Below are positions 1,475 to 48,708 of a stretch of DNA of 64,000 nucleotides, piece by piece. Source of the DNA: Tubulanus polymorphus (taxonomy: Eukaryota; Animalia; Nemertea). Below the pieces are notes generated by a model that ran no database searches, had not been told where the DNA came from, and saw nothing but the letters and a program-made list of their open reading frames with translations. The stretch spans positions 11,534,088 to 11,598,087 of the forward strand of contig NC_134031.1 in assembly GCF_964204645.1 (NCBI RefSeq), written 5' to 3'. Within the stretch, counting starts at the first letter, position 1; each line of letters begins with the position of its first letter. A program made the translations under genes and the position numbers.

Positions 1475-2690
1475 AGTTAGTGTCAGGGTATAAGGTTATA
1501 AGGTTAGGGTTTAGGTTAAGGGTTATAAGGTTAGGGTTTAGGCCTATAGGATTTATATTAGGGTTAGGGTTTAGGGGGTTTGGGTTAAGAGGGTTAAGGT
1601 TTAGAGGGATAAGGTTGAGGGGGTTAGGGTTAAGGGATTATGGTTTAGGGGGTTATGGTTCAGAGGGTTAGGGTTTAGGAGGGTTAGGGTTTAGGGGGTT
1701 AGGGTTTACAGGGTTAGGGTTAAGGGGGTTACGGTTTAGGGTGTTTAGATAGTAAGGATTTAGAGAGTTAAGTGTCTATTCAGTTAGGGTTTAGGGTTTC
1801 GGGGGTTAGGGTTTATAGTTATTTTCGTTCACTATTATTATTAGTGTCTAGAAGATTAGGGTTTATAGGGTTAGGGTTTAGGTGGTTAGGGTTTAGAGAG
1901 TTAGGGTTTAGAGACTTAAGTGTCTATTTAGTTAGGGGTTTCGAGGGTTAGTGTTTCGAGGGTTATGCTTTCAAGGGTTAGGGTTTATAGTGTTAAGGAT
2001 TACAAGGTTAGGGTTCATAGGGTTAGGGTTTAGATGGTTAAGGTTTAGGGGGTTAGGGTTAAGGGGGTTATGGTTTAGAGGGTTAGGGTTTAGAGAGGTA
2101 AGTGTCTATTGAGTTAGGGTTTAGGGGGTTAGGGTTATGAAAGTTAGGGTTTAGAGGGCTCAGTGTATATTGAGTTAGGGTTTAGGGTTAGGGGGTTAGG
2201 GTTAACAGTATAGGGTATAGAAAGTTAAGTGTCTATTGATTTAGGTTTAGGGTTTCGAGGGTTAGGGTTTAAAGAGTTAAGTGTCTATTGAATTAGGGTT
2301 TAGGGGGTTATGGCTTAGGGGGTTATGGTTTAGGGGGTTAGGGTTTAGAGGGTTAGGTTTTAGAGGGTTAGGGTTTCGAGGGTTAGGGTTTCGAAGGTTA
2401 GGGTTTATAGGGTTAGGATTTGGGGGGTTAGGGTCTATTATAAAGAATTAAGTGTCTATTGAATTAGGGTTTAGGGGGTTATGGTTTAGGGGTAAGGGTT
2501 TAGAGGGTTACGTGTTAGAGGGTTAGTGTTTCGAGGGTTAGGGTTTAGAAGGTTAGGGTTTATAGGGTTAGGATTTAGGGGTTAGGGTTTAGAGTGTTAA
2601 GGTTTACAAGGTTAGGGTTCATAGGGTAAGGGTTCATAGGGTTAGGTTTTGAGGGGTTTATTTCATAGGTTTTCAAAAGAGGTTTAGGTT
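1475..2690 (+). repeat. Degenerate telomere-like (TTAGGG/TTTAGGG) interstitial tract
   Basis: Dozens of GGGTTAGGGTTTA variants, G-rich on the + strand, with a recurring AAGTGTCTATT spacer. Confidence 0.9.
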
Positions 2691-6529: not shown

Positions 6530-8296
6530 ACGTATAGGGCCTACATTCTTCGACATACAGTTCATTAGACATCAAGAGCGTTATGCCTTTTTTACTACAC
6601 ATGCGAGAAATCATATCGTTTATAGATGCAGTCAATCATTTGCCCAAAGAAATTCCAAAGAGATACGATCTAATTTTGGAGTTTTTGAAATCCACTTAAC
6701 ATGATAGGCCTATCTATGAAAAGCAACTTCAACTTGAAATTGTTCTAGGAAATGGTTACACTAAAAAGAAATTTGATGCTTCTCCAGATCATTGCAAACA
6801 AACATATCATATATTGAGTAACCAATACAGCGATTTACTGAATAAATCAGATAATTTTCAAACTTTGCTTGAAATAAGTAAAAGCAGTTCCACTATAAGG
6901 AATGTCATTTTAATACTTTAAACCCGATCATGTAGGTTTTGCGGTAGTGACAAGTTAACTACAAACACGAAGTTAAGTTATCCTATAGTCTTCAGTAAAA
7001 ACGGTCCGTTGGGCAATAATACACCTACACAGGTGTATTATTTTTCAAATACTGTCTCAAGTGTAACGCAAAATACACTTATTCATTTAGTTACAAAGCT
7101 AATAGTCCTGAAAAGAAATATCCTACCGACTTAAGCCTACATAACGATTATTACGTGGTTACTACGCAAACTGTATTTACAACTGAAATTTTGAAATCTA
7201 TGTCAGCTAAGATGAAAATCTTTGGAGCATCTTTTGAGTCATTAGCCGAAGAATACAACGCAGAATTCATTGAAAGAATCGATGAACTGAACAGAGTATT
7301 CGAAGATGGTGGAAGAAATAATGGCAAATGGAATTTATGTGAATAGCGCATAGAAGATGCATGGTATTTATGGATCGCTTCAAAAAATTGAATTGCGTAA
7401 CAATTCAATACACGTCTGGAAATCGCATAGATATGGAATTGATAGCCGAGGACATTTTGGAGGTATTTTTTTTTCTATACGCCTATTTTCTTATTTAAAA
7501 TATTTACAAATCATTGAAACTTCTATACAATGTATCATTAGGCATGCCGAGGATCCGACAAGCGTTGGATCGAGCATAAGTGCAATATCCCAGGTTTTAA
7601 AGAAGGCTATTACACGGTAGACGGCAATGAAAAATTGAGAAGATCAATATGTGCCCATTCAGTACAAAAATCGGATAAACCAGGCTGCTTAAACGATTTT
7701 TGTCCCAATGACCCAGTGATTGGTGGTCATCATAAAGTTCCTAACAAGTTAGTTCTGTCATAAAAAAACATTCCATACACTTCGCCTGAAAAATCAATGC
7801 AAAAGCTTATCTATGTATACATTCTATAATGTTGTTTCAGAATTTCGATAAAATGTATATACTCAGAGAAAACTACCGCCATATATCATCATTTAGTTAC
7901 ATAATTTATTTATTAATTTGTCATTCTTGCAGATTTTGTACCTACCACGTACCACAACATAGCGAAAAGCTAATACAAAATCAACCAAACAGAATACAAC
8001 GCAAGCGGAAACTGCCTGAATATCTTAAAGGTAAAATACATCCTCGTATTAGCTATATTCTTAATTCTAGTAGCCTTCCGCGACTCAACGACCTTGATTT
8101 AAACTTGATCAATTCAAAACCTGTTTATCGACGCTTTTGGTTATATGAACTGATCAGCAATATACTTGAATAAAATAACCGGAATAACAAGAAATTTCCG
8201 ATGTTTACGGCTCGACAGTGCCTTTATAACGTGGATTTATCAAAATTGCCAAGCGAGCTGAAGGATATCATACGGATTGTATCGGCGACAGCGGTA
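6530..8296 (+). pseudogene. CxC5-type cysteine-cluster protein of KDZ (Kyakuja-Dileera-Zisupton)-like transposase, 5' part, disrupted
   Basis: Hand translation: CRFCGS...PIVFSKNGPLG..FKYCLKCNAKYTYSF...YYVVTTQTVFTTEILKSM...GASFESLAEEYN...LCE*RIEDAWYLW, later PGC...VIGGHHK (degenerate VxDGH); GT-AG introns and stops. Confidence 0.55.
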
Positions 8297-8449
8297 AGGT
8301 AAGAAAGCCTTTACACTTTTAGCAAAAACTAGGTGGAAAAGGGAAAAAAAATAATCACGCGAATTTCAATAGGGGTTTCTGTGAAGAAACAGAAAACCCT
8401 AATAAGTTTTTCCACAATTTGTTACACCAGAAATTAAACAAGTTGCTAT

Positions 8450-8662
8450 TTGACAATTTTTTTATGTGTTGTGTATGTTGGTTGTTCTAACATAAATTCA
8501 TTTATATCTTTATATTTTTTGTGGGATTATCTTATCTAATTTATCTTGTTTTACTTGACGCCAGATATTTTTGTTAGAAGAATAAGCAACCGAACTCTCA
8601 GGGTTGTAATATAAATTTCTTAAATATTGTTCTTTAGTATTAGGAGTTTTTTTACCACCCAT
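8450..8662 (-). pseudogene. Polinton-type integrase, N-terminal fragment
   Basis: MGGKKTPNTKEQYLRNLYYNPESSVAYSS...FMLEQPTYTTHKK matches the YYxP...QxxYTLHK N-terminal signature of Polinton integrases; truncated before the DDE core. Confidence 0.75.
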
Positions 8663-8692
8663 TTATATATCCTTAATTTTAACTTTATATTT

Positions 8693-9957
8693 CTAATATT
8701 GAATACTATCTAATTGTGAATTTACAATATTTAATTGTGCGTCACATATAATATAAATGTGCATTCTGAAATTTTTGTCTCCTGTTTTCTTTGCCATGAA
8801 TAATTGTATTCCATCTTTAGTGTTCTGTAGTTTTTTCCCAGAACCATGTAATGAATTATCCTCTGTTGTTCTAAAATCTAACCATAACGCGTATTTATTA
8901 CCGGTATAATAATCACTTTGATTAATATTACAATTTTCAGATGATTTTACTTTTTCATTCATAAAATGTTTTCTAATTTCTGGCCATTGATCAATCATTC
9001 TCATTCCTTGACAAAATATTTTATTTGCTATTCCTTCGATAGTTATTTCTACTTTTGTTATTTTAGGATTATAATAATTATCTACCTTTATTGCGCCATT
9101 AGAATATGTTGCAATGGTAAAAAATATTAATATACCTTTAATAGATCTTCTTGAGAAGTTAATATTCTCATTAATTATTTCATCATTTGCATTAATAGTT
9201 ACAGTTTTATATTTATCAATATAATCATATAATAATGAAAATCCTTGATTGTATTGAGTTTGAATTGTGTTAGCAATATTTTCATTAGTTACTGTGTTAT
9301 ATTCTAAACATATATTCGATAATTTATAACCCATATCTTTAACAACGCTAGATAATACAATTTCATTTACAGGAGCAAATTTTATCTCAAATATAATATC
9401 TTCTTGAATTACATATTTATATAAAGGTGCATTATTATTTATCAATTCAAAGTCTAATGGAATTTTATATTTGCTTCCATAAATCTTTTTAATCAAATTA
9501 TCTACGTCATTAGTTACTACTGCATTATTGGCCTCAGATCTTAATTTATTTTGATTTTCTGATTGGATGCCTTGAAATATCATATTATTTCTATTTTCTT
9601 TAGTTAACCATAAATCTTTATAATGCATAAATAAATTATAATCATCTAATGAGAAAACTGTTTCTGGACCAATCTTGATAGTTAATTTTTTAATCAAATA
9701 TCTTCCAAGATTATCAACAACATAATTATTATTATTACCAGTTACTTTTATATCAGCTGATAAATAAATACTATTTGGAACATAAAAAGTATTTTGTGTT
9801 AATCTCGGGATTCTAACATATAAAGTTTCATCAGGATTAAAGTTTCATCAGGATTAATATTAGAAGGGTTATGAGTGATTATATGATGTGATCTTTCTGC
9901 TTTAATAGCATTAGATATTTTACGATTCTTAGAAGGATTGATATAACGCCCACTCAT
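8693..9957 (-). pseudogene. Putative major capsid protein (double jelly-roll), frameshifted
   Basis: 334-aa ORF plus upstream frame MSGRYINPSKNRK...HNPSNINPDETLYVRIP; joined (about 415 aa) if the 17-bp tandem duplication at 9821-9854 is removed. Size, beta-rich pattern and context fit an MCP; fold not verified. Confidence 0.65.
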
Positions 9958-10012
9958 TTATTTAACAAAAAAATTCATCATTAATTTTTTATCATGTTAA
10001 GTTGATATTTTT

Positions 10013-11442
10013 TTATATCATGTTTACTAACCCAAAAATAATTGCACTTACAACTGTAATTAAAAATATAATAATATGTTCAGCAGCAAAGTTAATAATG
10101 TTTCCTGCAGATTTCAATATAAAACCAACAATTGATGCAATAATTCCTGGTAAAGCTGCGGCAGATTTTTTAGATAGTTCCCATAAATAGTTTGCTAATT
10201 TTTTTAAACCATCTTTGACTTTATCTTGTATAGAATTATTATCATTCGGGGGATTATCCGGTTTATTGGGAGTAGGAGTAGATTTCAAAGAATTTGATAT
10301 TGCTAAACCAATTGTTGTAAATAACATAGTTACAGCTGTTAGAATTGAAAGAATTGTGATTCCTTCTAATTTAAATAATAATTTTATTCTATCTTTCAAT
10401 TATATTTCAGAATTATGTTTTATCAACAAATCTTTAAAAATAATTTTTAATCTATTAATATTATAATCATATGATTTTAATAATGATTTAATTTCTTCTT
10501 TTTGTAATTCTAAATTATCTTTTAAATTATTAATTTCTTTTTCTAAACGTAATTCTTTTTGCCTATATTCCATTTCATCAATTACTTGACGATCAAGATC
10601 AGACTTTAATTGTTCTATTTCTTTATTTTTATCAGTTAATTCTCTTTCTAAAGTTCTAATTTTAATATCTCTTATACTTTTATTATGCGCAATTTATCAG
10701 CTTCATTTCTTATACTAATAATTTCTCTAATTGCTTCATCAGAAAATATATTTAAATCTTCTAATTGTTGATCTGTTGCATCAATTAATCCATTCGGTAA
10801 AAGTTTTTCAATTGGAACTTTATTTGATTTAAGTTTACTAGTTTTGGAAGTTATATTCTGTTCAGAAGTTGTTTCTGTTTCTGATTTCTTTTTGATTATT
10901 TCAAATAATTCATTAATTCTTTGTTTAAATACGTCTATATCATTATCAGTTAATTCTTGTATTATAACATCAGTTATTATATTACTATTATTAATTCTTT
11001 TAATTCTATCTGGATCTAAATCACTCAAAGTTGATTTTGTTAATATTTTATTTTTATTGTTTTTATAAGTGATATCAATATAATAATCACCTTTCAAATG
11101 ATAATACCATTTACCATTATCTAAAAATTTTAATTGATCTGCTAAAGGTCCAACGTCTTCATCATTTATGTTAAGTTTAGAATTTTCAATTATACGTTCT
11201 AATTTAGGTATTTTTTTTAAGTTATCTAAATCTTGTTTTACTAAATCTGGGTCTAAATTTTCAGGATTTAATTGTGATTCTGCGTTTTTAATATAATCAG
11301 GTATATTTAAATTATTATTATGTCCTGGCTCATTACCGTCATTAAAACTTGTTTCACTAAAATCAGGTTGTTGTTCATCAGTTATGCCAGGTTCATCAAA
11401 ATTATCCATTCCAATATCTATTCCACCTCCTTCTACATCCAT
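10013..11442 (-). pseudogene. Viral coiled-coil protein with C-terminal hydrophobic/amphipathic helices, split by frameshifts
   Basis: ORFs 10672-11442 and 10013-10399 joined by coiled-coil-like sequence; GITILSILTAVTMLFTTIGLAI and AAALPGIIASIVGFIL segments; TAAATG start. Confidence 0.6.
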
Positions 11443-11459
11443 TTATATAATAAAGAAAT

Positions 11460-12784
11460 TAAAATTAAAAATATAATATTCCTCCTATAACAATTCCTAT
11501 ACAAGTTAAAGCTAATTTAGTATTTTCATGGAATTTATTATCATTATCAGTTTTAATTATTTCATGTTGAATATTATCAGTTTTAATATTTTCTGATGTA
11601 TTATAATCCGGTTTAGAATCATTATTTAATTCAATATTCTTAGTTTTAGTTTCTGTTGATTGAATGTGTTTTTTTAATTTTTTTCACCTTCCATTAATTT
11701 TGGAGCAGTAATAATCTTTTTATTCATATCATTTAATCCAAATGAATTATTTATTGTTGCAGTATTAATTAGATTATTGTAACCAATTATATTTCCCATC
11801 TTTAATACTAAATCATTAGAAATAATTAATAGATTAGGGCTTATACAATAATTTAGTCTTACATGAGATTTATCTAAATAATTTTGATATCTTACAATGT
11901 TTTCTGGAATCGATCTATTTTTATCATTATGAATTGAATCTTCAAATAATACTTTGAATTGTTTCTGCGCATCGAATGAAGTGTTATCATTTCCAATTAT
12001 TGTGGATCTTGTTTCAACTTGCGCACCTAAAATACATATCAAATAAGGTTCTAATAGATTGATTTATTCTTTGTATACCAGCTTTAGTAAAACCTTCACT
12101 ATTTTCTAAAATGAAATAAACCCAACCATTATTATTTTGTTGTTGTATATAATTATAATATTTTGGTAATTCATTCCAATTTAGTGTTCTTATATCAGAA
12201 TTTGTTATTATTTTTCCAAATTCTTTAGTACATAATATTCCTAATCCATCCATTGTACCAATTTTTGCTCTAAAATCTTTATTTGAATTAATATTAAATT
12301 CATTACATATTTTATAAAACTTAGAAAAATTAATATTATTATTCAATTCTTTAAAATATTTTGAACCTGGTAAAGGACATTCTAATTAATCTAATATTAA
12401 TTTTATTTGAAAATAAGTATGAAATCTAAAGAGTGATAACCTCAATGGTAAACTTGGTTTGTTTAAATGATCATTCCAACTAATTCCACATCCTGTTGTT
12501 GCGCAATAAACAGCAAAATTTAATTGGTTCTGCCAATACTTCATATTAGATTTTAATAACCATTGTTTTGCCTCATTTCAATTTTCAAAATTAATTGTAT
12601 ACACATGAAATATATTTTCCATCTTTACGTGAAAATGATTACTTTCAGTAACATAAATATATAAATTAATTAATGAATTTAAAACTTAATTTCTATATGA
12701 AATATCTTTATTAAAATCTATTGCTGGAATATTATATTTAATTGATTTATTATATTGGAAAGCTTTTGGAAAACTATCTACCAT
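11460..12784 (-). pseudogene. Conserved viral protein with C-terminal membrane anchor, disrupted
   Basis: MVDSFPKAF start, WQNQLNFAVYCATTGCG, GFTKAGIQRINQSIRT, ILGAQVETRS, terminal KLALTCIGIVIG; homologue at 53594-54983. Confidence 0.7.
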
Positions 12785-12800
12785 TTATATAATTTAAAAA

Positions 12801-13235
12801 CTAATAATTTATTAATTCTTTTAATAATTTATCTTGTTCTTCAACTGTTATATGACCATTTAAACTTATTATATAATCTAGTGTATTCTTTAATTTATTA
12901 ATTTCTTTTATATTAGTTTTAATTTTTTCTTTATTACTTTTTATATTTAATTTTGAACTTATACCAGTTAAAACACTTGAACTTAATCCTAGTACGCCAA
13001 TTGATATAGCTAAAGGTGTTAATGGACTGAATATTGCTAGAAATGTTATTACAGAACTAATTGTAACCGAACCACTAATAATAAAATAATATATAATTTT
13101 AGATTTTAAATATTTTTTCTTTTTAACTTTTAAATCATTTTCAAATTCTAATATTTGTTTTTCTAAATATGTTTTTAATTTAGTTTTATTTATATAATGA
13201 GGAATGATATCAATATTATCAACTTTATCTTCCAT
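12801..13235 (-). CDS. Viral two-TM membrane protein
   Basis: Intact 144-aa ORF, hydrophobic hairpin IIYYFIISGSVTISSVITFLAIFSPLTPLAISIGVLGLSS; TAAATG start; homologue at 53263-53576. Confidence 0.75.
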   Translation of the reverse strand: MEDKVDNIDIIPHYINKTKLKTYLEKQILEFENDLKVKKKKYLKSKIIYYFIISGSVTISSVITFLAIFSPLTPLAISIGVLGLSSSVLTGISSKLNIKSNKEKIKTNIKEINKLKNTLDYIISLNGHITVEEQDKLLKELINY

Positions 13236-13313
13236 TTATTTAGAAAAAAAATTACTAATTAGTAAACTTATAAGCAACAAATATAACAATAACAGTTCCA
13301 CCTAAAATCCATA

Positions 13314-13676
13314 TTATTTCATATTTCTGGTTTCTTTACTCGGGGTATAATAATCTGATAATTTAGGTTTGTATAGATGTAATTTTTCTTTAGTGGTTAC
13401 CGCGTTATATAAACTCATTGCATCATCAACTGATTGAAAATCTCTATGTGAAATCTTCTGATCATATAATTCCTTGTTAATATAATCCATATAGTTTTGC
13501 CTCTTTTCTCTGTATTCTTCTGCTGCTTTATTGTATTTTTCTAATGCTAAGTTATGTCTTTTTTGTTCTGTTAATGATCCATTTTCATCAATATGCTTAA
13601 ATAAATAACCACCACCAGTAAATGCTGAAGCGTTAACAATTGCAGATCCTATAATAGTTATAATTGCAGAAGCCAT
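13314..13676 (-). CDS. Viral small protein with N-terminal hydrophobic helix and coiled coil
   Basis: MASAIITIIGSAIVNASAFTGGGYLF...EQKRHNLALEK; TAAATG start; a hydrophobic tail in another frame (to about 13255) suggests a late frameshift. Confidence 0.75.
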   Translation of the reverse strand: MASAIITIIGSAIVNASAFTGGGYLFKHIDENGSLTEQKRHNLALEKYNKAAEEYREKRQNYMDYINKELYDQKISHRDFQSVDDAMSLYNAVTTKEKLHLYKPKLSDYYTPSKETRNMK

Positions 13677-13700
13677 TTATTTAGTCAAATAATTACGTAT

Positions 13701-13922
13701 TTATATGGGAGGAATATATTTTTGTTTTTCTAAATAATCAATTGTTAAATTAGATAAAGTAACTGCTAATGTTAATTTCAAGATATCATTTATATCAAAT
13801 CTATCAACATTAACACTTCCCATTTTAAATACGTTTTTTAATACCATTGAATAACCAACAGTTCCAACTGATAGTAAGGCTCCATTATATAAACCAGTTA
13901 TTATCCACTTATTATCACTCAT
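13701..13922 (-). CDS. Viral small hydrophobic protein
   Basis: 73-aa ORF, TAAATG start, two hydrophobic segments. Confidence 0.7.
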   Translation of the reverse strand: MSDNKWIITGLYNGALLSVGTVGYSMVLKNVFKMGSVNVDRFDINDILKLTLAVTLSNLTIDYLEKQKYIPPI

Positions 13923-13925
13923 TTA

Positions 13926-14279
13926 TTAATTAAAAAAATTACTATCTTCAAAATATTTAGTTAACTTATTTATGATTAAATCAACATTTATTTCATTACT
14001 AGTTTCATTTGTATATATTTCAATTATTATTTTTTTAATATCATCGATGATAAAATCTTCATCTAATTCATAAAATCTTAAAGATTCTCTAATTAAATTA
14101 GTAATCTTTTCTACATCTAGAGTTTCTTTATCTATTGTTGTTTCATACTCAAATGTTGTTTCATTAGAAAATGCAATATTTTTGATTTCTGTAATTACAT
14201 CATTAATGTTAAATTTCATTTCTTTCTCACGTTTAAAATCAAATCCAAAACATATACTCGGTCCAACAGTTATATTCAT
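13926..14279 (-). CDS. Viral hypothetical acidic protein
   Basis: 117-aa ORF, TAAATG start, packed between neighbours. Confidence 0.65.
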   Translation of the reverse strand: MNITVGPSICFGFDFKREKEMKFNINDVITEIKNIAFSNETTFEYETTIDKETLDVEKITNLIRESLRFYELDEDFIIDDIKKIIIEIYTNETSNEINVDLIINKLTKYFEDSNFFN

Positions 14280-14295
14280 TTATATAATGAAAAAA

Positions 14296-15117
14296 TTAAT
14301 CTCTACATCTTATAACTAATTCATAAATTACAGGGAAATTATTTAAATCAATTAAGTATCCATTGTGATTTCTTACTTCTAATTTGAAATTATTGAAATG
14401 TGGTATACAAGGTTTAAAATCACATTCAGCTAAATTATAATTTATTTGCCTTCCAAATTGTTTAACATTCTTCAATGGTAAAATATTTAATATACTAGAA
14501 TTACAAATTGTATCTTTATTTGCTTCAAATGTTTTTGTAGGATCAATTAAATTGCAATAAATATAAAAATGTGTAAAAGGTATTAAATTTGATATACCGT
14601 ATATGTTTCCTACAATAATTTTAACTGGATGAATTCCTAACAGTTTAGCAAAAGGTTTTTTTACCAAGTAAGCATGTTTTCTTGAAGGTAAAATAGTACC
14701 AATAAGATTTTCATCATCAAACTTTATTTTAATTTTATTAGAGCTCTCACTTTTTATGAATTTAATATTAAATTTAGAATCACTACCTAATATAATCCGA
14801 GCTTTTCTATTAATTTCTTGCTCTAATGTTTCTAAATTATAAAATCCTGGTGTAAGCATAAGATGAATCCAGTCATGTATAATTTTATCATAATTAAAAA
14901 AGGTTCTATGTTCATTAGTTTTATCTGATACATTATAAAAAGAGTAACATAAACTTATATTAACTAATTTTAAATCAAAACAATTCTTAAATTCTCTATC
15001 TAATTGTATTAGTAAATTATGTGATTTATAATTTGTAAGTTTTCTAGAATCAACAAATATTCTGTATTCTTTTAATTCTACCATTATTTGTAACATAAAA
15101 AAATTACCGCTCATCAC
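14296..15117 (-). CDS. Putative minor capsid protein (penton, single jelly-roll)
   Basis: IFVDSR N-terminus, PGFYN, AKLLGI, FYIYCNLID and C-terminal FKLEVRNHNGYLIDLNNFPVIYELVI, a pattern typical of Polinton/virophage pentons; likely true start at 15084. Confidence 0.7.
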   Translation of the reverse strand: MMSGNFFMLQIMVELKEYRIFVDSRKLTNYKSHNLLIQLDREFKNCFDLKLVNISLCYSFYNVSDKTNEHRTFFNYDKIIHDWIHLMLTPGFYNLETLEQEINRKARIILGSDSKFNIKFIKSESSNKIKIKFDDENLIGTILPSRKHAYLVKKPFAKLLGIHPVKIIVGNIYGISNLIPFTHFYIYCNLIDPTKTFEANKDTICNSSILNILPLKNVKQFGRQINYNLAECDFKPCIPHFNNFKLEVRNHNGYLIDLNNFPVIYELVIRCRD

Positions 15118-15153
15118 TAAAAATTAATTTTGATAAAAATTTTTCCTTAATAA

Positions 15154-16489
15154 ATGGATGAGAAGATACCATGCGAAATTTGTGGTGAACTTCTAAGAAA
15201 AAAGTAATATGGCTCGACATATGAAAAAACATGATGAAAATTATGAACCCCCTAAAATAAACTGCCCAAAATGTAATAAATTATTCTCAAGAAATTATGT
15301 TAAAAAATATTCAGAGAAGTGTAAAATTAATGGCGCAACGGCTAATGTTGATAGTAACGAAAGTAATTGTAATTCTGTTGAAGTTGAACCAGAAATTATT
15401 TGGAAAAGACCTTTCTTATTCTATGACAAGGATAATATAAAAGATCATATCTGCGAGCCTTGTCGAAAAAAATATAACCCTGAAAATATAGAAGATTGGG
15501 AGAATCATCAATTTCGTAAAGTACATATAGATAAAATTGCTAATAAATTTGAAGCAGAATTCAATGAAAGAAAAAATAGTTTATTAGAAAAAATAAAATA
15601 TGTGAAAACGTTACCAGATAATAAAGAAACAGTTGAAAAGTTAGAAAAACAATATAATGAATTAACAAGAAAAACATATTATTGTAAATATTGTAAATTG
15701 ATTATTACAACAAGTAATTCAAATCTACATAATAGAACAATAAAACATAAAGAAAACGTAAGAAAATACCAGGAGCTTAATGAAGATCTATTACCAATAA
15801 ATTATAAACAAAAATGACCACAATGTAATTATGCGACCTTAAGGCAAGAAGGTACTGTGTTATTTTGTAATGAATGTGGATGGCAAAAGAATTTATGGGG
15901 TGAAGAAAAAACTTTTTTGAGAGATTTTCTCATAGAACCAAAATTAAATTATCTAGATGAAATTTTTAAAATATTTTCTATAGAAGATCATACACCAGAA
16001 TATATGCAATGGCTTGAAAAAATGAAAATGATAGAAAATAAAAATGGTGAAATAACTAAAAAAGATATAATAAAAACAATTATTCCATCAACATTTAACA
16101 CAAAACAAAAGAAAATGTATTTATATTTATTATTTAATGATTATTATGAAAAACCTAAATTAACAGAAGAAGATATGGAAAATATAAAAAAAACATTCAA
16201 ACAAATATTAATGTATCATTTGGAAAATAGAATAACAGATTCAATTAATTATGAATTATTTTTAGATAAGATTGTAAATTATTTAAACATCGATATTATA
16301 ATTCTATTTGACGAATTAACAAACAAAAAGAAACAAAGAGAGCGATATGAAATGTGGTACAAGATAGAACTTTATTTAAATGAGAAAAATGAAATGGAAG
16401 AACCTAAACAAATTATACAAGAACAATTAAATGAAAATGAAGAAGCCAATAGTGATTTCGAGTATGATGATATTGATTTTATGTTTTAA
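15154..16489 (+). pseudogene. C2H2 zinc-finger / Zn-ribbon / VLTF3-like late transcription factor fusion
   Basis: ORFs 15209-15817 and 15857-16489 are in frame, split by one TGA that replaces the first Cys of CPQC...CNECG. C-terminus PKLTEE...FKQI...INYELFLDKI...LTNKKK...MWYKI follows the VLTF3 pattern; a 1-nt insertion near 15200 separates the TAAATG start. Confidence 0.6.
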
Positions 16490-19400
16490 TGGCCATAAGG
16501 TAATGTTTTTATACCATCATCAAAAATATGCCTTTTATCATCAAATGGATTCAAACTAGTTTTTTCAACTTCATTAATGTACATCTCGTGATTTTCTGAT
16601 CAATTCATTTTATGTTTCATTACAATTGAGTTATATTAACACTTTATATAATCTTGAAATTCTATATGTTTATCAACCACATGTTTTCTTATTCCTTTTA
16701 ACTTTTTAGCTTCATGATCTTTTGTTCTATAACTATACATTTTACTTCTTATCTCAACAAATTCAATCATTTCATCACCCCCTAATTCATCTTTAAATTT
16801 ACCAGGAATCTTTTTATTATCATTGCTAAATAGTTCATGATCTTTGGGATAATTGCTAAAATCAAAATGATGTTTTAATGTTTTTAAGTCTTTTGTTATG
16901 TCATTTGTCTTGATTTTTAGTATGTAACTGTCAGTATTTTTTGCAATTAATGGAAATCCACAGTTAAATGTACCATCTTCAGTTGATAAATCATAAACAT
17001 AATCTGATGGTTTATATATTTCAAATAAATCTTTAACTTCTTCTGTTAATTCTTTTTCTACATGCCTTAAATTAAAACAATTTGGTTTAGATTTAATTAA
17101 TTCTATATTCATATTAAATCCTAATGAACTGCATAATATATTTAATCCTGATATAGCAACTTTCCTTTCTGTGCGAAGGTTATCTTTTTATCCTTTGTAA
17201 ATTTTTTATTTTAGTGCCATCTGCGGCATAGAATCCAATGAAGAACCACTTTCTTAAATTATTTTTTGCATTTAATACATAATCTGGTACTATCTTTTCT
17301 TTTGTTGAAGTATTACTTTTCACTATTGCATGAATATAGAATTCATCATTATATTTTATAGCAAAATCTTTAGGATTATTTACAAGTATTCTATAAACTG
17401 CTGATGATTTCATAACATCTATGATTTTAAATATTTTATGAGAATAAACTTATTCACAGAATTTCTTAATTCTTTCTAATAATTTCAAATCTTGATTGCA
17501 TAAATACCAACAATATTTATTACCCCAAACATAATTATACACACCTGCTGAACCATCACCCATGAAAAATCCTTTGATAAAATATTCTTTTTCTTCTAAT
17601 GTTTCAGGTTCTATATTATAAATATTATCAATAATTTCATCAAATGATATATGATTCATTCTTTGGAAAAATCTTTTATGTAATAATTCATCTCCAATTT
17701 TTATATCAGTTGGTTTTATTTCATAGCCATTTCGTTTAATTAAACTATGATCTTCTGTAACATCTACAAACCCTAATTTAGTTCTAACTCTATAGATTTT
17801 CTTATTTGTTTTATGTCTAATAATATTCTTTAATTTTATCCATCCATTTCTTGTCCAAACATCCATTAATTCATTTATTTGTATTAATTCTTTTTCATCA
17901 TATGAAATATAACATTCATTTTGTTTTGGAATTATTTCTGAAATTCTTCTTATCAATATTTTATCATTACATTTTAATAATATTGGGGTGTCAGCTGTTA
18001 CAGAATCAAAATATAATATTTCAATATGCTTTTCCCCAAAAAGTGGTTGTAAAACATTATAATAAAAATCAAACATTGATAATTTTGATACTTCTAAAAC
18101 AGTTGAACCAATGAATATAGGTTTATTAAATTTCATTGACGTTCTTTTTAATTTAACTGCTGTTAAATAATCTTCAAATCTTTCCTAAATGTCTAGGACT
18201 TGATTGTAAATGTCTTAATCGTTCAGAATTATTTACTAATTCAATATCATTTCTATTTCTAATATTTTCGCATGTTTTACCATAAAAACTATTATTCATT
18301 AATTTGAAGAAATCTTTTTCAAAATCTGGTTTTGATATGGTTCTCTGTTGAGTATTGAAATCTATATATTTTTCTAACCACTTCGATTGATTAAATTCAA
18401 TATATCTATGTACTTTCTTTAATTTCATTCCTTGTTTTAGATAAAATTTATATTCTATAATAAACAATATAATTGTATTTATTATTTTGAGTAAGTATTA
18501 ATTTTTCTGTAAAAACATGATCTTTCGGTTTTATTTTCTTCTGGTATTCACTTAAATAACTATCATCTACAGTTAAATGTTCTGGGCATTAAGGTAAGTT
18601 TCTTGTTTTAAACTTTATATTTTCAGGATATTCTAAATCAACTACAAAGAAATAACCAATTGGTGCTTCATCTTCTAAACTCATAATTGCGCTTTCCCAA
18701 TTAGTTTTATCATCATTTTCAACTTCTGTTAATATAAAATTTCTATATGGTTGGGGTTGCATCATTGCCCAGCCATATAAATTATTGGCGTCAATATATA
18801 ATAATTTATATTCATCATTTGCTTTAAAATATCTATCTCCCATAACACCACTAATTCCACCTCTAATTGATTTTTCAAATAATAAAACCATATCTGGTTC
18901 TTTTAATAAATCTAATTCTACATTTGTATATTTTAAACCACATTGCCAGGTTAAACCAGGACTAGAGTAGCAATAACAACGATCAACATTAAAATGATTC
19001 AAATTAACTTCTCTAAATTTTTCAAATATGTCAGCCAATATCATAACATCTGATTTTAAATATAAATCAACTAATTCACCATGATTTTTCATCTTAAAAT
19101 GGTTCCAAATATTTAATGTTCTATTAAACACTTCATCTTTCACATACTCCTCTTTTAATTGATCATAAAATTGATCTTTTAATAATTCTGTTACATTAAA
19201 ATCATTGTGTGTTTTATAAAATGAATAAGGAATTGCGCCTTTATATCTCAATAATTTAAAATCTTGTTCATTGGATAATAATATCGAGTTATAACAAAAT
19301 CATTATCAACTAAACTTTTTGATAAATTATCTAATGAACTTGCTAGAAATCTATAAGAATCTAAAAATCTAATGCAACCAAATTGAAATGAAATATAATT

Positions 19401-21511
19401 TTCAGATGTTTTAGGTAATAGTTTAAAATCATATTTTCTTACATTTACGTCATTCATAGCATTATATTCTTCTATTTCTTGATTAATTGCGCCCAATTTT
19501 CCCGATAATTGTTTTGTAAATAGATGGGTATCATAGCCTGATAAATTATGAAATAATATTGGTACGAAATTAACTTTCTTAGCTTGTAAATTGCAATCTT
19601 CTTGAGCAGCTCCACGATATTTTGAATTTAAATGATCATGATCTCTAACTTTTTTATCAAATGAATAAAAACGTTTTTCACAATAACAACAATGAGTTGC
19701 ATAATTAAAATCAATTTCATCTTTTGTCATAACTATTCTTTTATTTTTTGTTTAATAATTTTGCAAAATCACTTTCTAATTCAATCATTTTGTCACAAAA
19801 ATCATTAACTACATTTTCACCTCTAAAAGAAATATATTAACTTTCATATAATTCGGGATAATTTGATTTGATGTAAATTCCATAAGCAGCAGCTCTTTGA
19901 TGAACTTAATTGTATTTATAATTGGTGGGTCTTGAATTATATCTTCATTTAGTTCATTTCCTTTATCCATTGATTTTAATAATTGCTGTTTGTTATATAT
20001 TTCTTTTCTCTCTTGATCAGTTGGAGTTACAAATGGAACAATATTTTTAAATTTATGATTAGTAAATTTCAATTTATAATCTTTTTCTGTTGGCATTATT
20101 AATTTACAAAAATCTTTATTATCACATAATTCTTTATGTTTCAGTAAAGCATTCTCACATCTAAATTTAGATAAATATTTTCTACATAGATAAATTTTAT
20201 TATGGTGATCACTTTCTGTTCTAATGAATAAATCAATTTGTTTTAACCACATATAATGTTCATTTTCATCTTTTTTGTAATATAACAAATCTATAGCATT
20301 TTCATCATCATAATATTCTGTTAAATATAAAGCTTCCAGTGTATAATCTTTAATATTTTCACCTTTTGTCTTTGGTAATTGCATTAATTCGAATACATTT
20401 ATTTTTAAATTATTAATTTTTTCTATTTTGGGTATCATTTTTATAGTTACTGGATATTGATCAATTTTATATAATGTTTCATATTTCCGGTATTTTGTTA
20501 TTCTAAAACTATGTGTTATATCTTCTGTTGGGTGTAAGCAACTAATAATTGACCGTAGAAAACATTTATTATCTTCATTTTGAATATTTATTACTGCTTT
20601 TGTTGTAAATGGTAATTTAATATAAGATGATGCTTTAATATCCTCCTTTTCTGTTGTAAAGTTTGAATCATTTTTAAACATTTTATTACTTTTTGATGTT
20701 TTATTTCTTTTTGTATTATAAACATTTAAATCTAAAAATATAATTTCATTCAATGTTAAGCCAGAACCCTCAAAATATCTTTCTTCAATATGACGTTTAA
20801 ATTCATTAAATATTTTTTCTAATTTCTCTTTTATTTGTGTTTTTGAAATTATTTCTTCAGAGAGTGTTTGAATATTATAATCCATTTTATCTTCTGACTT
20901 TAAAAAACTTACTTTCCCAGAGATACTAATTTTTGGATATTCAACATTGTTATCAAATCTAGTATTTTTTCTATTATTTCATTAAATTTACTATAATCTT
21001 CTATTGTTGTACCTTTAAAAAATCTAAATATAATAGCTGCAGGACCAATTTAACTACGTAATGTTTCTAATATTTCAATTGTATCTTTTATTTCTAGTGA
21101 ATCAATATAATTTCTAACATTTTCCATGTAAGGTTTATTTGAAATGGATTTAGTTTTGGAAGTTGGTTTTTTTACTTTTTGAGGTTTATCATCGAAATAA
21201 TCTTTTCCTAAAACATTATTACTCAAATTTTGATGGTGTTTTTGTGATTCGAGATGTCTATTATAATTCCTTTTTGTTATAAATTCATCACAAACTTCAC
21301 ATTTTATTTCATCCACATTCATATCATCTAATCGTTCTTTTCTTTCATTTGTATTATCTAGTGTTTCAAAATCTATTACATTTTTTATATGATTTGCAGT
21401 TTTTTCATGTCGTGATTTTTGGGATTTATCGATGTATTTTTTACAATATTGGCAATAATATTGATTTTTATTAACATTATTATTTTCTGGCTGGTGTTCA
21501 TTCTCCCCCAT
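16486..21511 (-). pseudogene. polB: Protein-primed family B DNA polymerase with intein, multiply disrupted
   Basis: FHNLSGYD and YLKSDV (exonuclease), YIDANNLYGWAM (A), KLMNNSFYGK (B), YFD/TDS (C), PGKFKDE, RSKMYS, C-terminal FDDKR...TLPYGH*; N-terminal Zn fingers, OTU-like NEDNKCF...HY and EndoVII-like VRDHDH. Confidence 0.95.
16936..18004 (-). mobile_element. Intein with LAGLIDADG homing endonuclease in PolB motif C (about 357 aa reconstructed)
   Basis: Block A SVTADTPILL, block B VDVTEDHSL, endonuclease blocks IKGFFMGDGS and FIGFYAADGT, blocks F/G YVYDLSTEDGTF...LIAKN, then TDS; removal restores YFDTDS. One stop and apparently two 1-nt frameshifts. Confidence 0.95.
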
Positions 21512-21595
21512 TTATTAGGAAAAAAAATTACTTGTGGTGATGAGTGGTGTCTCGACCTTCGACCTCTGGTATGAAACAACACATTTCCTATTACT

Positions 21596-21980
21596 GTTGT
21601 ATATGTTGGTTGTTCTAACATAAAATCATTTATATCTTTATATTTAACTACATTTTGTGGGATTATCTTATCTAATTTATCTTGTTTTACTTGACGCTAT
21701 ATATTTTTGGTAGAAGAATAAGCAACCGAACTCTCAGGGTTATAATATAAATTTCTTAAATATTGTTCTTTAGCATTTCTAGTTTTTTATCCCCCATTTA
21801 TATATCGTTAATTTTAACTTTATATTTTTAATATTGAACACTATGTAATTGATAATTTATGATATTTAATTGCGCATCAGATATAAGATAAATGTGCATT
21901 TTGAAATTTAAACTTTCTTTTTCCTTTTTCATGAATAATTGTATTCCATCTTTTGTATTTTGTAGTTTTTCCCCAGAACC
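21596..21980 (-). mobile_element. Virus copy B fragment: MCP C-terminus plus integrase N-terminus
   Basis: Diverged direct duplicate of 8468-8846. Confidence 0.85.
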
Positions 21981-22059
21981 AATATATTAAAAAATTTCTT
22001 TAACTGTTTTTGGATCTAATACAATAAATTTATTATTTCTATCATAATAGAAATATTAC

Positions 22060-22485
22060 TAGAAATAATAAATTTATTGTATTAGATCCTGAAACAGTTA
22101 AAGAAAATTTAGATAATTGTATAAAAATAGCAATTGATATTTATAAAGGATCAAATACATTATTTGTAATAGAAGATTGTGCACATTTACATGATTCAAA
22201 AATTAGAAAGAGTGAAGTATGTTATTTAGCTTTCTCTGGAAGACATTTGGGATAACGTGGGTTTTAAATCAAAAATATAATTCAATTGTTAAAGATTTTA
22301 GAGAAAACATTTGATTTTTAGTATTATTCTACAAGAAAGATAGAAAATCGATGAAAAATGCGCTTGAGGAAAATGATATTATTCCACATGATTTACATAA
22401 TGAATATATGGATAAATTGAAAAATAACAAAAGATCAAAATTACTATTTCGATTACAACACCCATTTGAATATGAATTCATTTAA
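22060..22485 (+). pseudogene. A32-like (FtsK/HerA) DNA packaging ATPase, C-terminal half
   Basis: Hand translation: TLFVIEDCA (Walker B), LAFSGRHLGI, WVLNQKY, DFRENI; Walker A half missing; frameshift and stop. Confidence 0.8.
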
Positions 22486-22688
22486 ACTCAACTAGCTGGT
22501 TAATCTAGTATATTTTAGTCACATTCTAGTCAAATCTTAGTTATTCGTAGTTGAAACAAAAATCAAATAAATTTCAACAAGAAATAAATAAAAACAATAA
22601 TATTTCGACTAGCATGTTAATCTAGTATATTTTTAGTTACATTCTAGTTAAATTCTAGTTGCAACAACACAATTTTTTTGTTTTATAA

Positions 22689-23238
22689 ATGGGAGGTGAA
22701 AAGAAAGGAAAATCTAAAAATAGTGATGTTCCAATTGAAAAAACTTTGGATGATTAATATAGGTATAACAGAAACAAAATTAACACCAGATAATAATGGT
22801 GCTTTAAATGATATTACTACAAACAATAATTATGAATATTATCTTTATTGTAAACATCAATTAGAAATATTTATAGCATCTGGGAAATGTAAAAGTTTTA
22901 TTAGCAAAAATTTAACTTATAATGAATAAGATGCAATGAAATCAGATGAAATTATTAAATTATTTAAGATTTATGAAACTGCGAGAATAGCTAGAATTAA
23001 TGATGCGATATCAGAAAATGTATTAAAAGGTTATAGTAAATTATGTAAATACATGCTACCAATTCAAGATGAAAATAGATTATATTCCGATTTAGAAAAT
23101 GATTATTTAGTTATGACTGAATTTAATGAATGGATTGGATATTCATCATTTCAATTAGGTGGATTTATGACATTATCAACTGGAGTTATGACATTTTCAA
23201 ATATTGAAAGTAAAATTTTTTCTATAATAAATGAGTGA
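22689..23238 (+). pseudogene. Viral hypothetical protein, disrupted
   Basis: TAAATG start at 22689; ORFs 22678-22929 and 22936-23238 are in frame across one stop. Confidence 0.55.
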
Positions 23239-23599
23239 AGTGGAAGAGGTGAAAGGATTAACTGTAAAGAAAAAACCGAGATCACAGAAACATATTGAAT
23301 GGTCTCGGCAATTAGGAATTAAATCGAGAGAATTTAAAAAAGCTATAAAAGAAAAAATAAATAATGAAAATGTTAATAATAATGGTGAAAATATTTTTAT
23401 TTCTACTCCTTCTGATAATAGAATATATGATAAATATTTATATTTTACAACTGGATTTGTAATTGTATTCATTTTGATTGGGTGTAGTTGGTATAAAAAA
23501 TCAAATAATATTTATGTTATTAATAATTCTGAAACAACTACTATCAAAAATGAAAATACTTCTGAAATTCCAAAATCCACAATAAAAGAAATGGATTAA
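23231..23599 (+). CDS. Viral single-TM protein
   Basis: 122-aa ORF, TAAATG start, TM segment YLYFTTGFVIVFILIGCSWY. Confidence 0.7.
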   Translation: MSEVEEVKGLTVKKKPRSQKHIEWSRQLGIKSREFKKAIKEKINNENVNNNGENIFISTPSDNRIYDKYLYFTTGFVIVFILIGCSWYKKSNNIYVINNSETTTIKNENTSEIPKSTIKEMD

Positions 23600-23747
23600 T
23601 ATTTTAGAAAAACAGCAAAAAAATAATTTCATTGATTCTAATTGAATATCTCACTACTTTTGTCTGTCTATGCGGAGCAATTAAATTGTCCAGATAAGTC
23701 ATTTCGGATTCTCAATATTTAATCAATTTTATTATCAATTTATTTTT

Positions 23748-24073
23748 TTAACCAACAACTTCTAAATCATGATGCCCGTCTTCATTTTTCCCATGGTAAA
23801 TTATTTTAAATCCTTTAAATCTTTTAATTCCTCTGTACTCAATGAAACCTATTTATCAGGTAAAAATACTTTAAATTCCCGCGTTGTACTAACATTACAG
23901 TAAGTTAAATTTGCTGATACTTTCTCTCCATGTTTAGTTTTTATCTTTTCTAATTTTGATATTTTGTGTTCAATTTCATTTGTAACATCGACTAACTTTT
24001 TTATTTCAAATTGTTTTTTTGCTGGTTTTATTCTGTTATTTACTGTTGCTAAGAATGCTTTTCTATTTCCCAT
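23748..24073 (-). pseudogene. Small viral protein, possibly OB-fold ssDNA-binding, next to a terminus ending about 24160
   Basis: TAAATG start; TKHGEKVSANL...FKVFLPDK, continues past one stop; upstream 24070-24160 resembles 21508-21595. Confidence 0.4.
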
Positions 24074-24163
24074 TTATTATGGGAAAAAATTACTTGTGGT
24101 GATGAGTGGTGTGTCGTTCTCTCGTTCTCTGATCTGAACCCAAAATTTCCTAATTACTACGCT

Positions 24164-24482
24164 TGTGAATGACGATTTGATGAATGGGTAACTCTGGATA
24201 GGATTACAGTCCTCTCTCTCGCATTATCGCTCGCTGTGTGCTCAGAGTTTGTGAGCTGAACCTGTTTGTATTGTATTTTGCATTTCTAAACTCTATGAAC
24301 TTGTACAGTCTTTATTCTGAATCTCTCTTCTAGCACTATTTCTGTGCACCCCGCTATCCCCTCCGATTTGTATCTAAACCATGTACTTGTAAATACATTT
24401 ATTCCGAATAAAACCACGGTAAAAGGCAGATAGTCGTTGTCTTCATATTCTGGGACCTATTGTTGGCCGTCTTTACCCAACA
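24164..24482 (+). repeat. 5' LTR (319 bp)
   Basis: TGTGAATGACGATTTGATGAATGGGTAA repeated at 31240; contains AATAAA; ends in CA before the PBS. Confidence 0.9.
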
Positions 24483-24485
24483 TTT

Positions 24486-24503
24486 TGGTCCCTCGAGCCG
24501 GAT
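24486..24503 (+). promoter_or_regulatory. Primer-binding site, tRNA-Tyr type
   Basis: TGGTCCCTCGAGCCGGAT, one mismatch from the complement of the tRNA-Tyr 3' end. Confidence 0.75.
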
Positions 24504-24521
24504 GCTAGATGACGGACAACG

Positions 24522-31188: not shown

Positions 31189-31267
31189 CTTAAACTGTTT
31201 CGTGTAACTTATTTCCTTCCGTCATTTCGGGCGGGAGGATGTGAATGACGATTTGATGAATGGGTAA

Positions 31268-48117: not shown

Positions 48118-48640
48118 CAAATATAAATATTCAATGATTCAAATATGAGTTATTTCAATCACACTTTACTGACACTTTTAATGTTTAAAAATCAAGAATT
48201 TAACACATATAAATATAAATATTCAATGATTCCAATATGAATTATTTCAATCACACTTTACTCACACTTCTAATGTTTAAAAATCAAGGATCTAACACAT
48301 ATAAATATAAATATTAACTGTTTTAAATATGAATTATTTCACTCACACTTTACTCACACTTTTAATGTTTAAAAATCAAGAATTTAACACATATAAATAT
48401 AAATATTAACTGTTTTAAATATGAATTATTTCACTCACACTTTACGCACACTTTTAATGTTTAAAAATCAAGAATTTAACACATATAAATATAAATATTC
48501 ACTGTTTTAATATGAATTATTTCAATCACACTTTACTAAAACTTTTAATGTTTAAAAATCTAACTCATACAAATATAAATATTGAAATAATGTTTAAAAT
48601 ATATCTATTCTATAAGAGCTCACACTTTACTCACACTTTT
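48118..48640. repeat. Tandem repeat, 92-bp unit, about 5.5 copies
   Basis: AACACATATAAATATAAATATT at 48202, 48294, 48386 and 48478. Confidence 0.95.
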
Positions 48641-48708
48641 ATATTGAATAATCTATTAATTTATATGTTATTCATATATATTTTATTCATGTATATAAAT
48701 ATTTTAAG

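What the first reader, a model, noticed from the sequence alone, without database searches (positions are those of the whole stretch)
8450..24160. Candidate virophage-like satellite of a pox/NCLDV-type virus endogenised in an animal genome
Seen: a Polinton-like gene set (integrase, MCP, penton, ATPase, pPolB) with three independent large-DNA-virus signatures, namely T-tract/TAAATG gene starts, a VLTF3-like factor and a PolB motif-C intein of the giant-virus type. No RNA polymerase or capping genes are visible. Known: TAAAT(G) is the poxvirus post-replicative initiator, and virophages such as mavirus use their helper's late promoters and integrate in the host genome. Inference: this element was transcribed by a helper virus RNA polymerase in a cytoplasmic factory, picked up its intein during co-infection, and may act as an inducible antiviral provirophage in an invertebrate. 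Parts of the element are deleted, so gene absence is weak evidence.
Basis: partly seen in the sequence, partly recalled or inferred. Interest (0 to 1): 0.92.

Follow-up and report, generated by a model that had tools for sequence, protein, structure and literature searches.

The report
Endogenous Polinton with poxvirus-type promoters
This is a decayed, multi-copy small DNA virus (Polinton-like) in what is likely an invertebrate genome; it and its close relatives start almost every gene with a match to the poxvirus late-promoter motif, so it likely relied on the transcription machinery of a larger helper virus that has not been identified.

Summary
The observations hold. 8449-24160 is a broken, rearranged Polinton-like element (pPolB, capsid, penton, ATPase and integrase fragments, ~90-bp terminal repeats) at 40-200 times flank read depth. 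14 of 15 retained gene starts read TAAATG behind a fixed-distance T-tract (background 5%). New here: the motif is clade-wide (48 of 60 genes in 14 related loci; 3 of 38 in distant relatives; 53 of 429 in large-virus loci). The VLTF3 homology is real but remote. The intein sits in polymerase motif C and belongs to a small pPolB clade nested among inteins of RNA-primed PolBs. One late-type promoter on all genes, no RNA polymerase seen, and no avoidance of AATAAA favour transcription by a helper Nucleocytoviricota virus (~60%). The three signatures do not name one helper: the promoter is pox-like, the intein is closest to giant-virus bins, and VLTF3 is known in other Polinton-like viruses. No helper was found, no transcript was seen, and nothing supports an antiviral role for this dead copy. 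New variant of a known kind.

The parts
8449..8662 (-). integrase, N-terminal ~60 codons only, broken; TAAATG start
   Evidence: tblastn of L006/L009 integrases; those hit rve + chromo
8693..9957 (-). major capsid protein, one frame break near 9840; TAAATG start
   Evidence: 271 homologues, best 75%; weak Capsid_N in 8 of 33
10010..11442 (-). coiled-coil protein with C-terminal hydrophobic segments (485 aa in L005), broken; TAAATG start
11465..12784 (-). conserved unknown protein (442 aa in L005) with C-terminal hydrophobic helix, broken several times; TAAATG start
   Evidence: fold unresolved
12801..13235 (-). SLATT-like two-membrane-helix protein, open; TAAATG start
   Evidence: weak SLATT hits below cut-off
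13261..13676 (-). small conserved hydrophobic protein (139 aa in L005), one break; TAAATG start
13701..13922 (-). 73-aa conserved hydrophobic protein, open; TAAATG start
13926..14279 (-). 117-aa unknown protein, open; TAAATG start
14296..15084 (-). penton / minor capsid protein candidate, open; T-tract present but start is not TAAATG
15154..15817 (+). zinc-finger protein, broken near its start; TAAATG start
   Evidence: zf-U1 E 3.6e-7; L005 homologue
15818..16489 (+). VLTF3-like late transcription factor (zinc ribbon + helical domain); no start of its own in this copy
16486..21511 (-). protein-primed DNA polymerase B in many pieces, with an endonuclease-VII-like insert; the zinc-finger ORF 21050-21511 (TAAATG start inside the terminal repeat) is inferred to be its N-terminus
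   Evidence: PF03175, PF02945 weak
16936..18004 (-). intein with two LAGLIDADG-type motifs in polymerase motif C, broken by stops/frame shifts
21507..21595 (.). terminal repeat, ~90 bp, carries an inward-facing T-tract/TAAATG promoter
21595..21986 (-). second fragment of integrase start and capsid C-terminus, 88% identical to 8467-8846; TAAATG start at 21797
21991..22110 (.). fold-back (51-nt arms) at the point where gene orientation flips
   Evidence: (I12)
22040..22485 (+). A32-like packaging ATPase, start missing, broken
22689..23238 (+). conserved unknown gene A (206 aa in L005), broken; TAAATG start
23231..23599 (+). conserved unknown gene B with hydrophobic segment, open; TAAATG start
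23754..24073 (-). terminal unknown gene (114 aa in L005), broken; TAAATG start inside the terminal repeat
24069..24160 (.). terminal repeat of the other arm; abuts the BEL/Pao LTR at 24164

Best explanation
The region is a decayed, rearranged germline copy of a Polinton-like virus whose genes share one promoter matching the poxvirus late type, and the virus was likely transcribed by the RNA polymerase of a co-infecting large DNA virus (Nucleocytoviricota), as virophages are. Shown: gene set, terminal repeats, high copy number, the spaced AA/T-tract/A-TAAATG motif on capsid, polymerase and integrase genes alike, its conservation in the capsid clade, the VLTF3 homologue and the motif-C intein. 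[quoted passage not shown] The helper is more likely pox-like than not (about 55:45 within this reading) and is unidentified. This copy is predicted to be non-functional.
For: 14 of 15 retained starts are TAAATG vs 5.2% background; T at -9 in 94% of 54 motif-bearing starts in relatives and no such profile at 109 non-start TAAATG sites. Vaccinia late promoters are TAAAT(G) overlapping the ATG with a conserved T about 10 nt upstream (PMC11980589; PMC5294985). Gaps between genes vary from -80 to 325 nt, so it is not stop-start coupling, and T at -3 is the opposite of a Kozak purine (own knowledge). 48 of 60 in close loci vs 3 of 38 distant and 53 of 429 in large-virus loci; all 12 TAAATG-MCP loci fall in one 55-row clade, SH-aLRT 95, quick tree. 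One promoter class with no early class parallels endogenous mavirus-like elements (10.1101/2025.10.09.676808). AATAAA is not avoided in coding strands (157 vs 164 expected in 64 CDS; 3.4 per kb) while TTTTTNT is (11 vs 40). The closest long relative adds a deoxynucleoside kinase under the same promoter. 31 of 38 scanned intein hits are RNA-primed PolBs.
Against: No helper sequence found (no host genome held). No transcript start was seen. The intein points to giant-virus bins, whose flanking genes use TAAATG at only 12%, not to poxviruses; its donor is unresolved. VLTF3's pox affinity rests on weak Foldseek ranks from a poor model (E 0.009 and 0.1). VLTF3 occurs in Tetraselmis PLVs, a group with a member described as a nuclear lytic virus. 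TTTTTNT does not regularly follow stop codons, A-runs are also depleted (0.78), and the depletion is weak in this copy (11 vs 13.5). Several ORFs, including the 442-aa one, have no assigned fold, and no relative covering the whole element was obtained, so a private polymerase is not formally excluded.
Confidence: 0.6

Rival explanations
1. Autonomous nuclear virus: the element's own VLTF3 steers host RNA polymerase II to a virus-specific promoter; no helper is needed.
For: VLTF3 is encoded by the element itself and by PLVs of a group with a member described as nuclear and lytic. Some Nucleocytoviricota without RNA polymerase keep VLTF3 (own knowledge). 40-200-fold read depth shows the family multiplied in the nuclear genome.
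Against: The VLTF3 region, polymerase and integrase carry the same promoter as the capsid genes, so no early class exists to start the cascade. Coding strands hold about 3.4 AATAAA per kb with no avoidance. T at -3 and a start inside the motif would suit host cap-scanning poorly (inference).
Confidence: 0.2
2. Vestigial satellite: the promoters and intein are inherited from a helper-dependent ancestor, but the copies in this host spread as a nuclear transposon family through read-through or rare host transcription.
For: Reads of other copies are mostly 85-99% alike (30972 at 90-95%, 18483 at 95-99%, 15841 under 90%, 1447 at 99%+ of 66743); three decayed pieces lie in this 64-kb window.
Against: The promoter is near-perfectly kept even in a copy whose ORFs are broken, and is fixed in intact-ORF relatives, so selection on it lasted until close to insertion.
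Confidence: 0.12
3. The transcribing partner is not a large virus but a cytoplasmic linear element with a pox-derived RNA polymerase, as pGKL2 is for pGKL1 in yeast.
For: Yeast virus-like elements are ~74% AT, have pPolB, terminal repeats, a TAAAN initiator and slippage poly(A) leaders (PMC6211774).
Against: Their promoters resemble poxvirus early promoters, they have no capsid or VLTF3, and none is known in animals (own knowledge); the upstream element here is a T-tract of late type.
Confidence: 0.08

Closest known systems
Endogenous mavirus-like virophages (EMALEs) of Cafeteria and giant-virus-dependent Tetraselmis PLVs
   Same: pPolB/rve-type integrating small dsDNA virus carrying a helper-type late promoter; Tetraselmis PLV gene maps list VLTF3 and SLATT genes (passages)
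   Different: Host here is likely an animal; promoter is T-tract/TAAATG, not the CroV TCTA motif; no virophage-type capsid or protease detected; dependence and protection untested
Entomopoxvirus-associated PLVs (Barth et al. 2024, PMC11296320)
   Same: Small Polinton-like viruses tied to a poxvirus in an animal
   Different: Other capsid lineages, with cysteine protease, mu-like protein and (in the lepidopteran elements) phospholipase; the main text has no promoter, VLTF or intein analysis
Coral and other invertebrate polintoviruses outside the two Maverick-Polinton groups (Stephens 2024 PMC11131425; Bellas and Sommaruga 2026 preprint; Polinton-3_NV clade as described in PMC11296320)
   Same: VLTF3 reported in coral elements; animal elements grouping with Aquintoviruses noted; distant relatives L001-L003 share capsid (33-35%), ATPase, integrase and the small genes
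   Different: Those distant relatives lack fixed TAAATG starts (3 of 38); placement against the published references was not tested
Vaccinia virus late promoter
   Same: TAAATG overlapping the start codon, followed by G or A, with a T-rich tract peaking 9-11 nt upstream
   Different: Sits on all gene classes of a ~16-kb element, with an added near-invariant AA at -15/-14; start site and poly(A) leader unobserved
Motif-C inteins of giant-virus family B DNA polymerases
   Same: Same insertion point (Y-x-D | T-D-S), 37-50% identity, LAGLIDADG-type nuclease
   Different: Host protein is a protein-primed PolB; penultimate residue is Lys, not His; broken in this copy

Membership tests
Maverick-Polinton (Polintoviricetes) | protein-primed PolB | tested here: met
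   PF03175 on three pieces, best E 1.2e-11
Maverick-Polinton (Polintoviricetes) | retroviral-type (rve) integrase | tested here: met
   N-terminal fragments only in the window; orthologues in L005, L006 hit rve + chromo
Maverick-Polinton (Polintoviricetes) | A32-like ATPase and penton | tested here: met
   PF04665 in L005 orthologue; penton profile hits 8h2i P1v1, E 0.0036 (that P1 is a penton is recalled)
Maverick-Polinton (Polintoviricetes) | double jelly-roll major capsid protein | tested here: inconclusive
   Capsid_N below cut-off in 8 of 33; hhalign to two giant-virus MCPs probability 3%; no PDB hit; not folded
Maverick-Polinton (Polintoviricetes) | adenain-type cysteine protease (core in group 1) | tested here: not met
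   none recognised in the window or in L005; both are incomplete
Maverick-Polinton (Polintoviricetes) | terminal inverted repeats | tested here: met
   two ~90-bp terminal repeats, 82% identical, on different arms; one arm is flipped so they now lie in direct orientation
Maverick-Polinton (Polintoviricetes) | 6-bp target-site duplication | not testable with these tools
   the original outer junctions are lost in this copy
Maverick-Polinton (Polintoviricetes) | capsid falls in Maverick-Polinton group 1 or 2 | not tested
   no reference capsids were held; the tree holds only relatives found here
Virophages (Virophaviricetes) | virophage-type capsid and cysteine protease | tested here: not met
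   no virophage capsid family or solved-structure hit; no protease
Virophages (Virophaviricetes) | replication depends on a co-infecting giant virus | not testable with these tools
   only sequence proxies
Aquintoviricetes-like PLVs | MCP/mCP/ATPase module without protease, accessory SLATT and VLTF3 | tested here: met
   (SLATT below cut-off); literature
Aquintoviricetes-like PLVs | placement by MCP or ATPase phylogeny against references | not tested
   reference profiles are in preprint supplements that could not be read
Poxvirus late promoter | TAAAT(G) overlapping the ATG | tested here: met
   14 of 15; 48 of 60 in relatives
Poxvirus late promoter | T-rich tract about 10 nt upstream | tested here: met
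   T at -11..-9 in 86-93% (window) and 67-94% (relatives) vs 30-38% in controls
Poxvirus late promoter | start site in the AAA with non-templated poly(A) leader | not testable with these tools
   no raw RNA reads available
VLTF3 (PF04947) | zinc ribbon plus C-terminal helical domain, profile similarity | tested here: met
   hhalign probability 88%, score 45.9 vs at most 20.4 in 40 shuffles; best of 829 sequences; atlas 0.96 with low recognition value; Pfam itself negative
PolB motif-C intein | allelic insertion site, Ser at 1, terminal Asn, Thr at +1 | tested here: met
   TIGR01445 above cut-off
PolB motif-C intein | penultimate His | tested here: not met
   Lys in this copy; some homologues have Ser
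PolB motif-C intein | protein splicing activity | not testable with these tools
   needs an assay on a naturally intact allele

The most novel reading that the evidence does not exclude
A whole clade of animal Polinton-like viruses are satellites of a still undiscovered poxvirus-like lineage of invertebrates: every gene is wired to the helper's late polymerase, the viruses integrate in the germline, and intact copies wake on infection and act as the first provirophage defence in animals.
Probability: 0.17. Interest if true: 0.93.

Novelty: new variant of a known kind. Interest (0 to 1): 0.72.

Why it matters
How animal Polintons are transcribed, and whether any are virophage-like, is open. A fixed, clade-wide promoter matching the poxvirus late type gives a sequence handle on that question: it predicts a start site, a poly(A) leader, silence in uninfected tissue and the promoter class of an unknown helper virus that can be searched for. 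It also separates sublineages by promoter, as in Cafeteria virophages. A canonical motif-C intein in a protein-primed PolB records DNA exchange between small Polinton-like viruses and large DNA viruses. I found no report of either feature in ten library searches; subscription journals, Repbase and preprint supplements were not searchable.

Tried and rejected
IMG/VR scans found no relative of the capsid, VLTF3 (116) or pPolB (117). VLTF3 word-seeded searches gave nothing; Pfam, PHROGs, NCBIfam and PDB sequence searches missed it; its single-sequence model was poor (pLDDT 51) and PDB Foldseek uninformative (136). The 442-aa protein stayed unresolved (pLDDT 36). A strict promoter pattern scan of IMG/VR gave 14 isolated matches and no helper candidate. 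The kinase of L005 found one uninformative relative. No RNA holder was listed, which is no evidence on expression. Rejected: stop-start coupling; ORF-calling artefact (starts were fixed by homology); a general hairpin rule at gene ends (8 of 57); TTTTTNT as a regular terminator after stops; the weakly supported sister group of the pPolB inteins as a pox-like donor (the two examined are tailed jumbo phages). Earlier scan findings: none. The entomopoxvirus-associated PLV genomes, a natural positive control, are not in the held collections.
Full report
OBSERVATION. The stretch 8449-24160 is a 21-25% GC island in a 33-46% GC background. It holds the pieces of about 16 genes. Using relatives with open reading frames as guides, they are: integrase start, major capsid protein (MCP), four conserved unknown or hydrophobic proteins, a SLATT-like protein, a 117-aa unknown, a penton candidate, a zinc-finger protein, a VLTF3-like ORF and a long protein-primed PolB, followed by a ~90-bp terminal repeat; then a second short piece of integrase and MCP, a fold-back, an ATPase fragment, genes A and B, a terminal gene and a second terminal repeat (82% identical to the first). 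So both arms of an element are represented, one flipped; the integrase core and ATPase start are missing, and most genes carry stops or frame shifts. Five ORFs are open (12801, 13701, 13926, 14296, 23231). A BEL/Pao retrotransposon abuts the right end; with THAP and P2RX7-type ORFs and a TTAGGG-like array this makes an invertebrate host likely (that BEL/Pao is animal-restricted is recalled). Raw DNA reads of the same species label (run X6, about 12% read) cover the element at about 180-1040 against 4-5 in the left flank, 40-200-fold, mostly 90-99% alike. The family is thus abundant and this copy is old.

PROMOTER. 14 of 15 retained starts (13 of 14 distinct genes) read TAAATG, against 32 of 612 other ATGs (P about 1e-17); the penton is the exception. 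The motif is rigidly spaced: A at -15 (14 of 14) and -14 (13 of 14), T at -13 to -8 (71-93%), A at -1 (14 of 14). 109 non-start TAAATG sites show no such profile. A spaced pattern matches 13 times in the window against 0.83 expected. In 14 metagenome loci with MCP 52-74% identical (L007 left out as a near-duplicate of L006; L004, L019, L020, L022-L027 treated as distant or decayed), 54 of 66 ORFs of 70 aa or more start with TAAATG, with T at -9 in 94% of them. At 100 aa or more the counts are 48 of 60 (close), 3 of 38 (distant L002, L003, L019, L020, L022) and 53 of 429 (37 virus loci bearing related inteins). L018, inside the clade, has 0 of 2. All 12 loci whose MCP starts with TAAATG lie in one 55-row clade (SH-aLRT 95; quick tree, midpoint root, long-branch warnings), spanning 20-44% GC. 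The vaccinia late promoter is TAAAT followed by G overlapping the start codon, with a conserved T at the 10th base upstream among further Ts (PMC11980589, passages; PMC5294985, passages, which lists different late motifs for mimivirus, CroV and ASFV). Intergenic gaps from -80 to 325 nt exclude stop-start coupling. In 64 coding sequences of the close loci AATAAA is not avoided (157 vs 164 expected under synonymous shuffles) whereas TTTTTNT is (11 vs 40; TTTTTVT 0.31 vs TTTTTVV 0.74); A-runs are also reduced (0.78), the signal is weak in this copy (11 vs 13.5), and TTTTTNT does not regularly follow stops, so this line is suggestive only.

VLTF3. Pfam, PHROGs, NCBIfam and word-seeded searches miss the ORF 15818-16489. 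The ESM atlas ranks Pox_VLTF3 clusters first (0.96, 219 shared features, recognition value below threshold). A profile of three giant-virus VLTF3 proteins ranks it first among 829 sequences (E 0.0047), and hhalign gives probability 88%, score 45.9 against at most 20.4 for 40 shuffles. Foldseek with a poor model puts an entomopoxvirus late factor first and cowpox VLTF3 third, at E 0.009 and 0.1. The homology is accepted; its pox affinity is a lead. VLTF3 is already reported in coral polintoviruses (PMC11131425, passages), MELD viruses (PMC8502044, passages) and Tetraselmis PLVs (10.1101/2025.10.09.676808, passages), so it does not by itself show helper dependence.

INTEIN. The intein-free pPolB of L011 aligns up to and resumes after a 1069-nt insert (16936-18004) at motif C. 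The insert starts with Ser, ends Lys-Asn before Thr, holds two LAGLIDADG-type motifs, hits TIGR01445 above cut-off and aligns along its length with PolB inteins. Of the best 150 hits I scanned 38: 31 are RNA-primed PolBs, 7 are fragments without a family; nearly all share the same site. Many related loci are giant-virus bins by name. In a 196-row quick tree the window's intein groups with five others (SH-aLRT 98); two show pPolB exteins (P0181, P0208), three are fragments. The clade is nested among RNA-primed PolB inteins, its weak sister group includes jumbo phages, and the donor is unresolved. The gain likely predates this element.

MECHANISM. One promoter class on capsid, polymerase and integrase genes, no recognised RNA polymerase or capping enzyme, very low GC, no avoidance of the nuclear poly(A) signal and an intein from the large-virus pool best fit a satellite transcribed by a helper's late machinery (0.6), the logic shown for endogenous mavirus-like elements. 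The main rival is an autonomous nuclear virus using its VLTF3 with host polymerase II (0.2); a vestigial state (0.12) and a pGKL2-like partner (0.08; PMC6211774, passages) follow. The helper's identity is open: promoter and weak VLTF3 ranks point to poxviruses, the intein to other large viruses. No helper was found. The 442-aa protein and other unknowns have no fold. The antiviral role has no evidence here; this copy is predicted dead, and whether intact copies exist is unknown (1447 of 66743 reads are 99% or more alike to this copy, which does not answer it).

KNOWN AND NEW. It works like an integrating virophage but is not a member of the virophages (no virophage capsid or protease), and membership of canonical Maverick-Polintons is unproven (no protease seen, capsid not placed). 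It likely belongs to the loosely described animal PLVs outside the two Maverick groups (10.64898/2026.06.19.733378: part 1, passages and section 7; its supplements, with the reference profiles, could not be read and bear on placement). Entomopoxvirus-associated PLVs are the nearest precedent (PMC11296320: passages, parts 2-3 of 8, supplement part 1 of 72) but are other lineages and their promoters were not analysed in the main text. PMC11161782 (passages) proposes intein invasions behind nuclease inserts in pPolBs without describing a canonical intein in what I saw. Other papers opened gave nothing bearing on this: 10.1101/2024.03.23.586382 (42), 10.64898/2026.10.13.758929 (49), PMC5499653, PMC3671162, PMC12220804, PMC4542343, all passages only. 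None of the 40 listed of 373 papers, nor the 25 of 118, contained TAAATG; searches gave no report of this promoter or intein in Polintons.

VERDICT. Observation confirmed; interpretation partly supported. New variant of a known kind, interest 0.72. The most novel reading, a pox-satellite clade acting as provirophage in animals, has probability about 0.17.

Noticed in passing
window 47000-49116: A second 21%-GC island with one gene under the same spaced promoter (start 47291, minus strand), five to six 92-bp tandem repeats and a ~400-bp fold-back whose outer ends carry the same 9-bp terminus as the repeat at 21587-21595; likely the end of another subfamily.
   Followed up: partly
window 53260-55870: A further decayed family fragment, 83% identical to 11308-13119, in opposite orientation, with TAAATG starts at 53594 and 54999.
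   Followed up: partly
window 24164-31267: BEL/Pao LTR retrotransposon inserted at the element's terminus; its 3' LTR is cut after 28 bp.
   Followed up: yes
window 8062-8405: A different high-copy repeat (read depth jumps at 8062, many loose ends, ~51-bp internal repeats) directly left of the element; no similarity to the terminal repeats.
   Followed up: no
window 1485-2620: Degenerate TTAGGG-like array with a 15-bp period, suggesting a subtelomeric or telomere-derived region.
   Followed up: no
L005 10340-10981: Deoxynucleoside kinase (PF01712, E 1.7e-31) under the same promoter in the longest close relative, whose ORFs are open.
   Followed up: partly
L001-L003 gene starts: Distant relatives show a T-tract followed by an ATA-type word 0-3 nt before the ATG instead of TAAATG; by eye a looser bipartite promoter that might match another helper class. 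Not tested.
   Followed up: no
L005, L006, L009 after the ATPase stop: Stem-loops follow the ATPase gene in three relatives (strong in L006); not general across genes (8 of 57).
   Followed up: partly
L001-L003; protein cluster of P0036: Polinton-like loci sit in a bacterial genome bin and capsid homologues are filed under Bartonella names; both look like eukaryotic contamination of prokaryotic assemblies.
   Followed up: no
L051, L059: Tailed jumbo-phage contigs carry a short intein at the same PolB motif-C site.
   Followed up: partly
L001 11430-20644: A ~4.75-kb block of the distant element (gene A to PolB fragment) is tandemly repeated.
   Followed up: no
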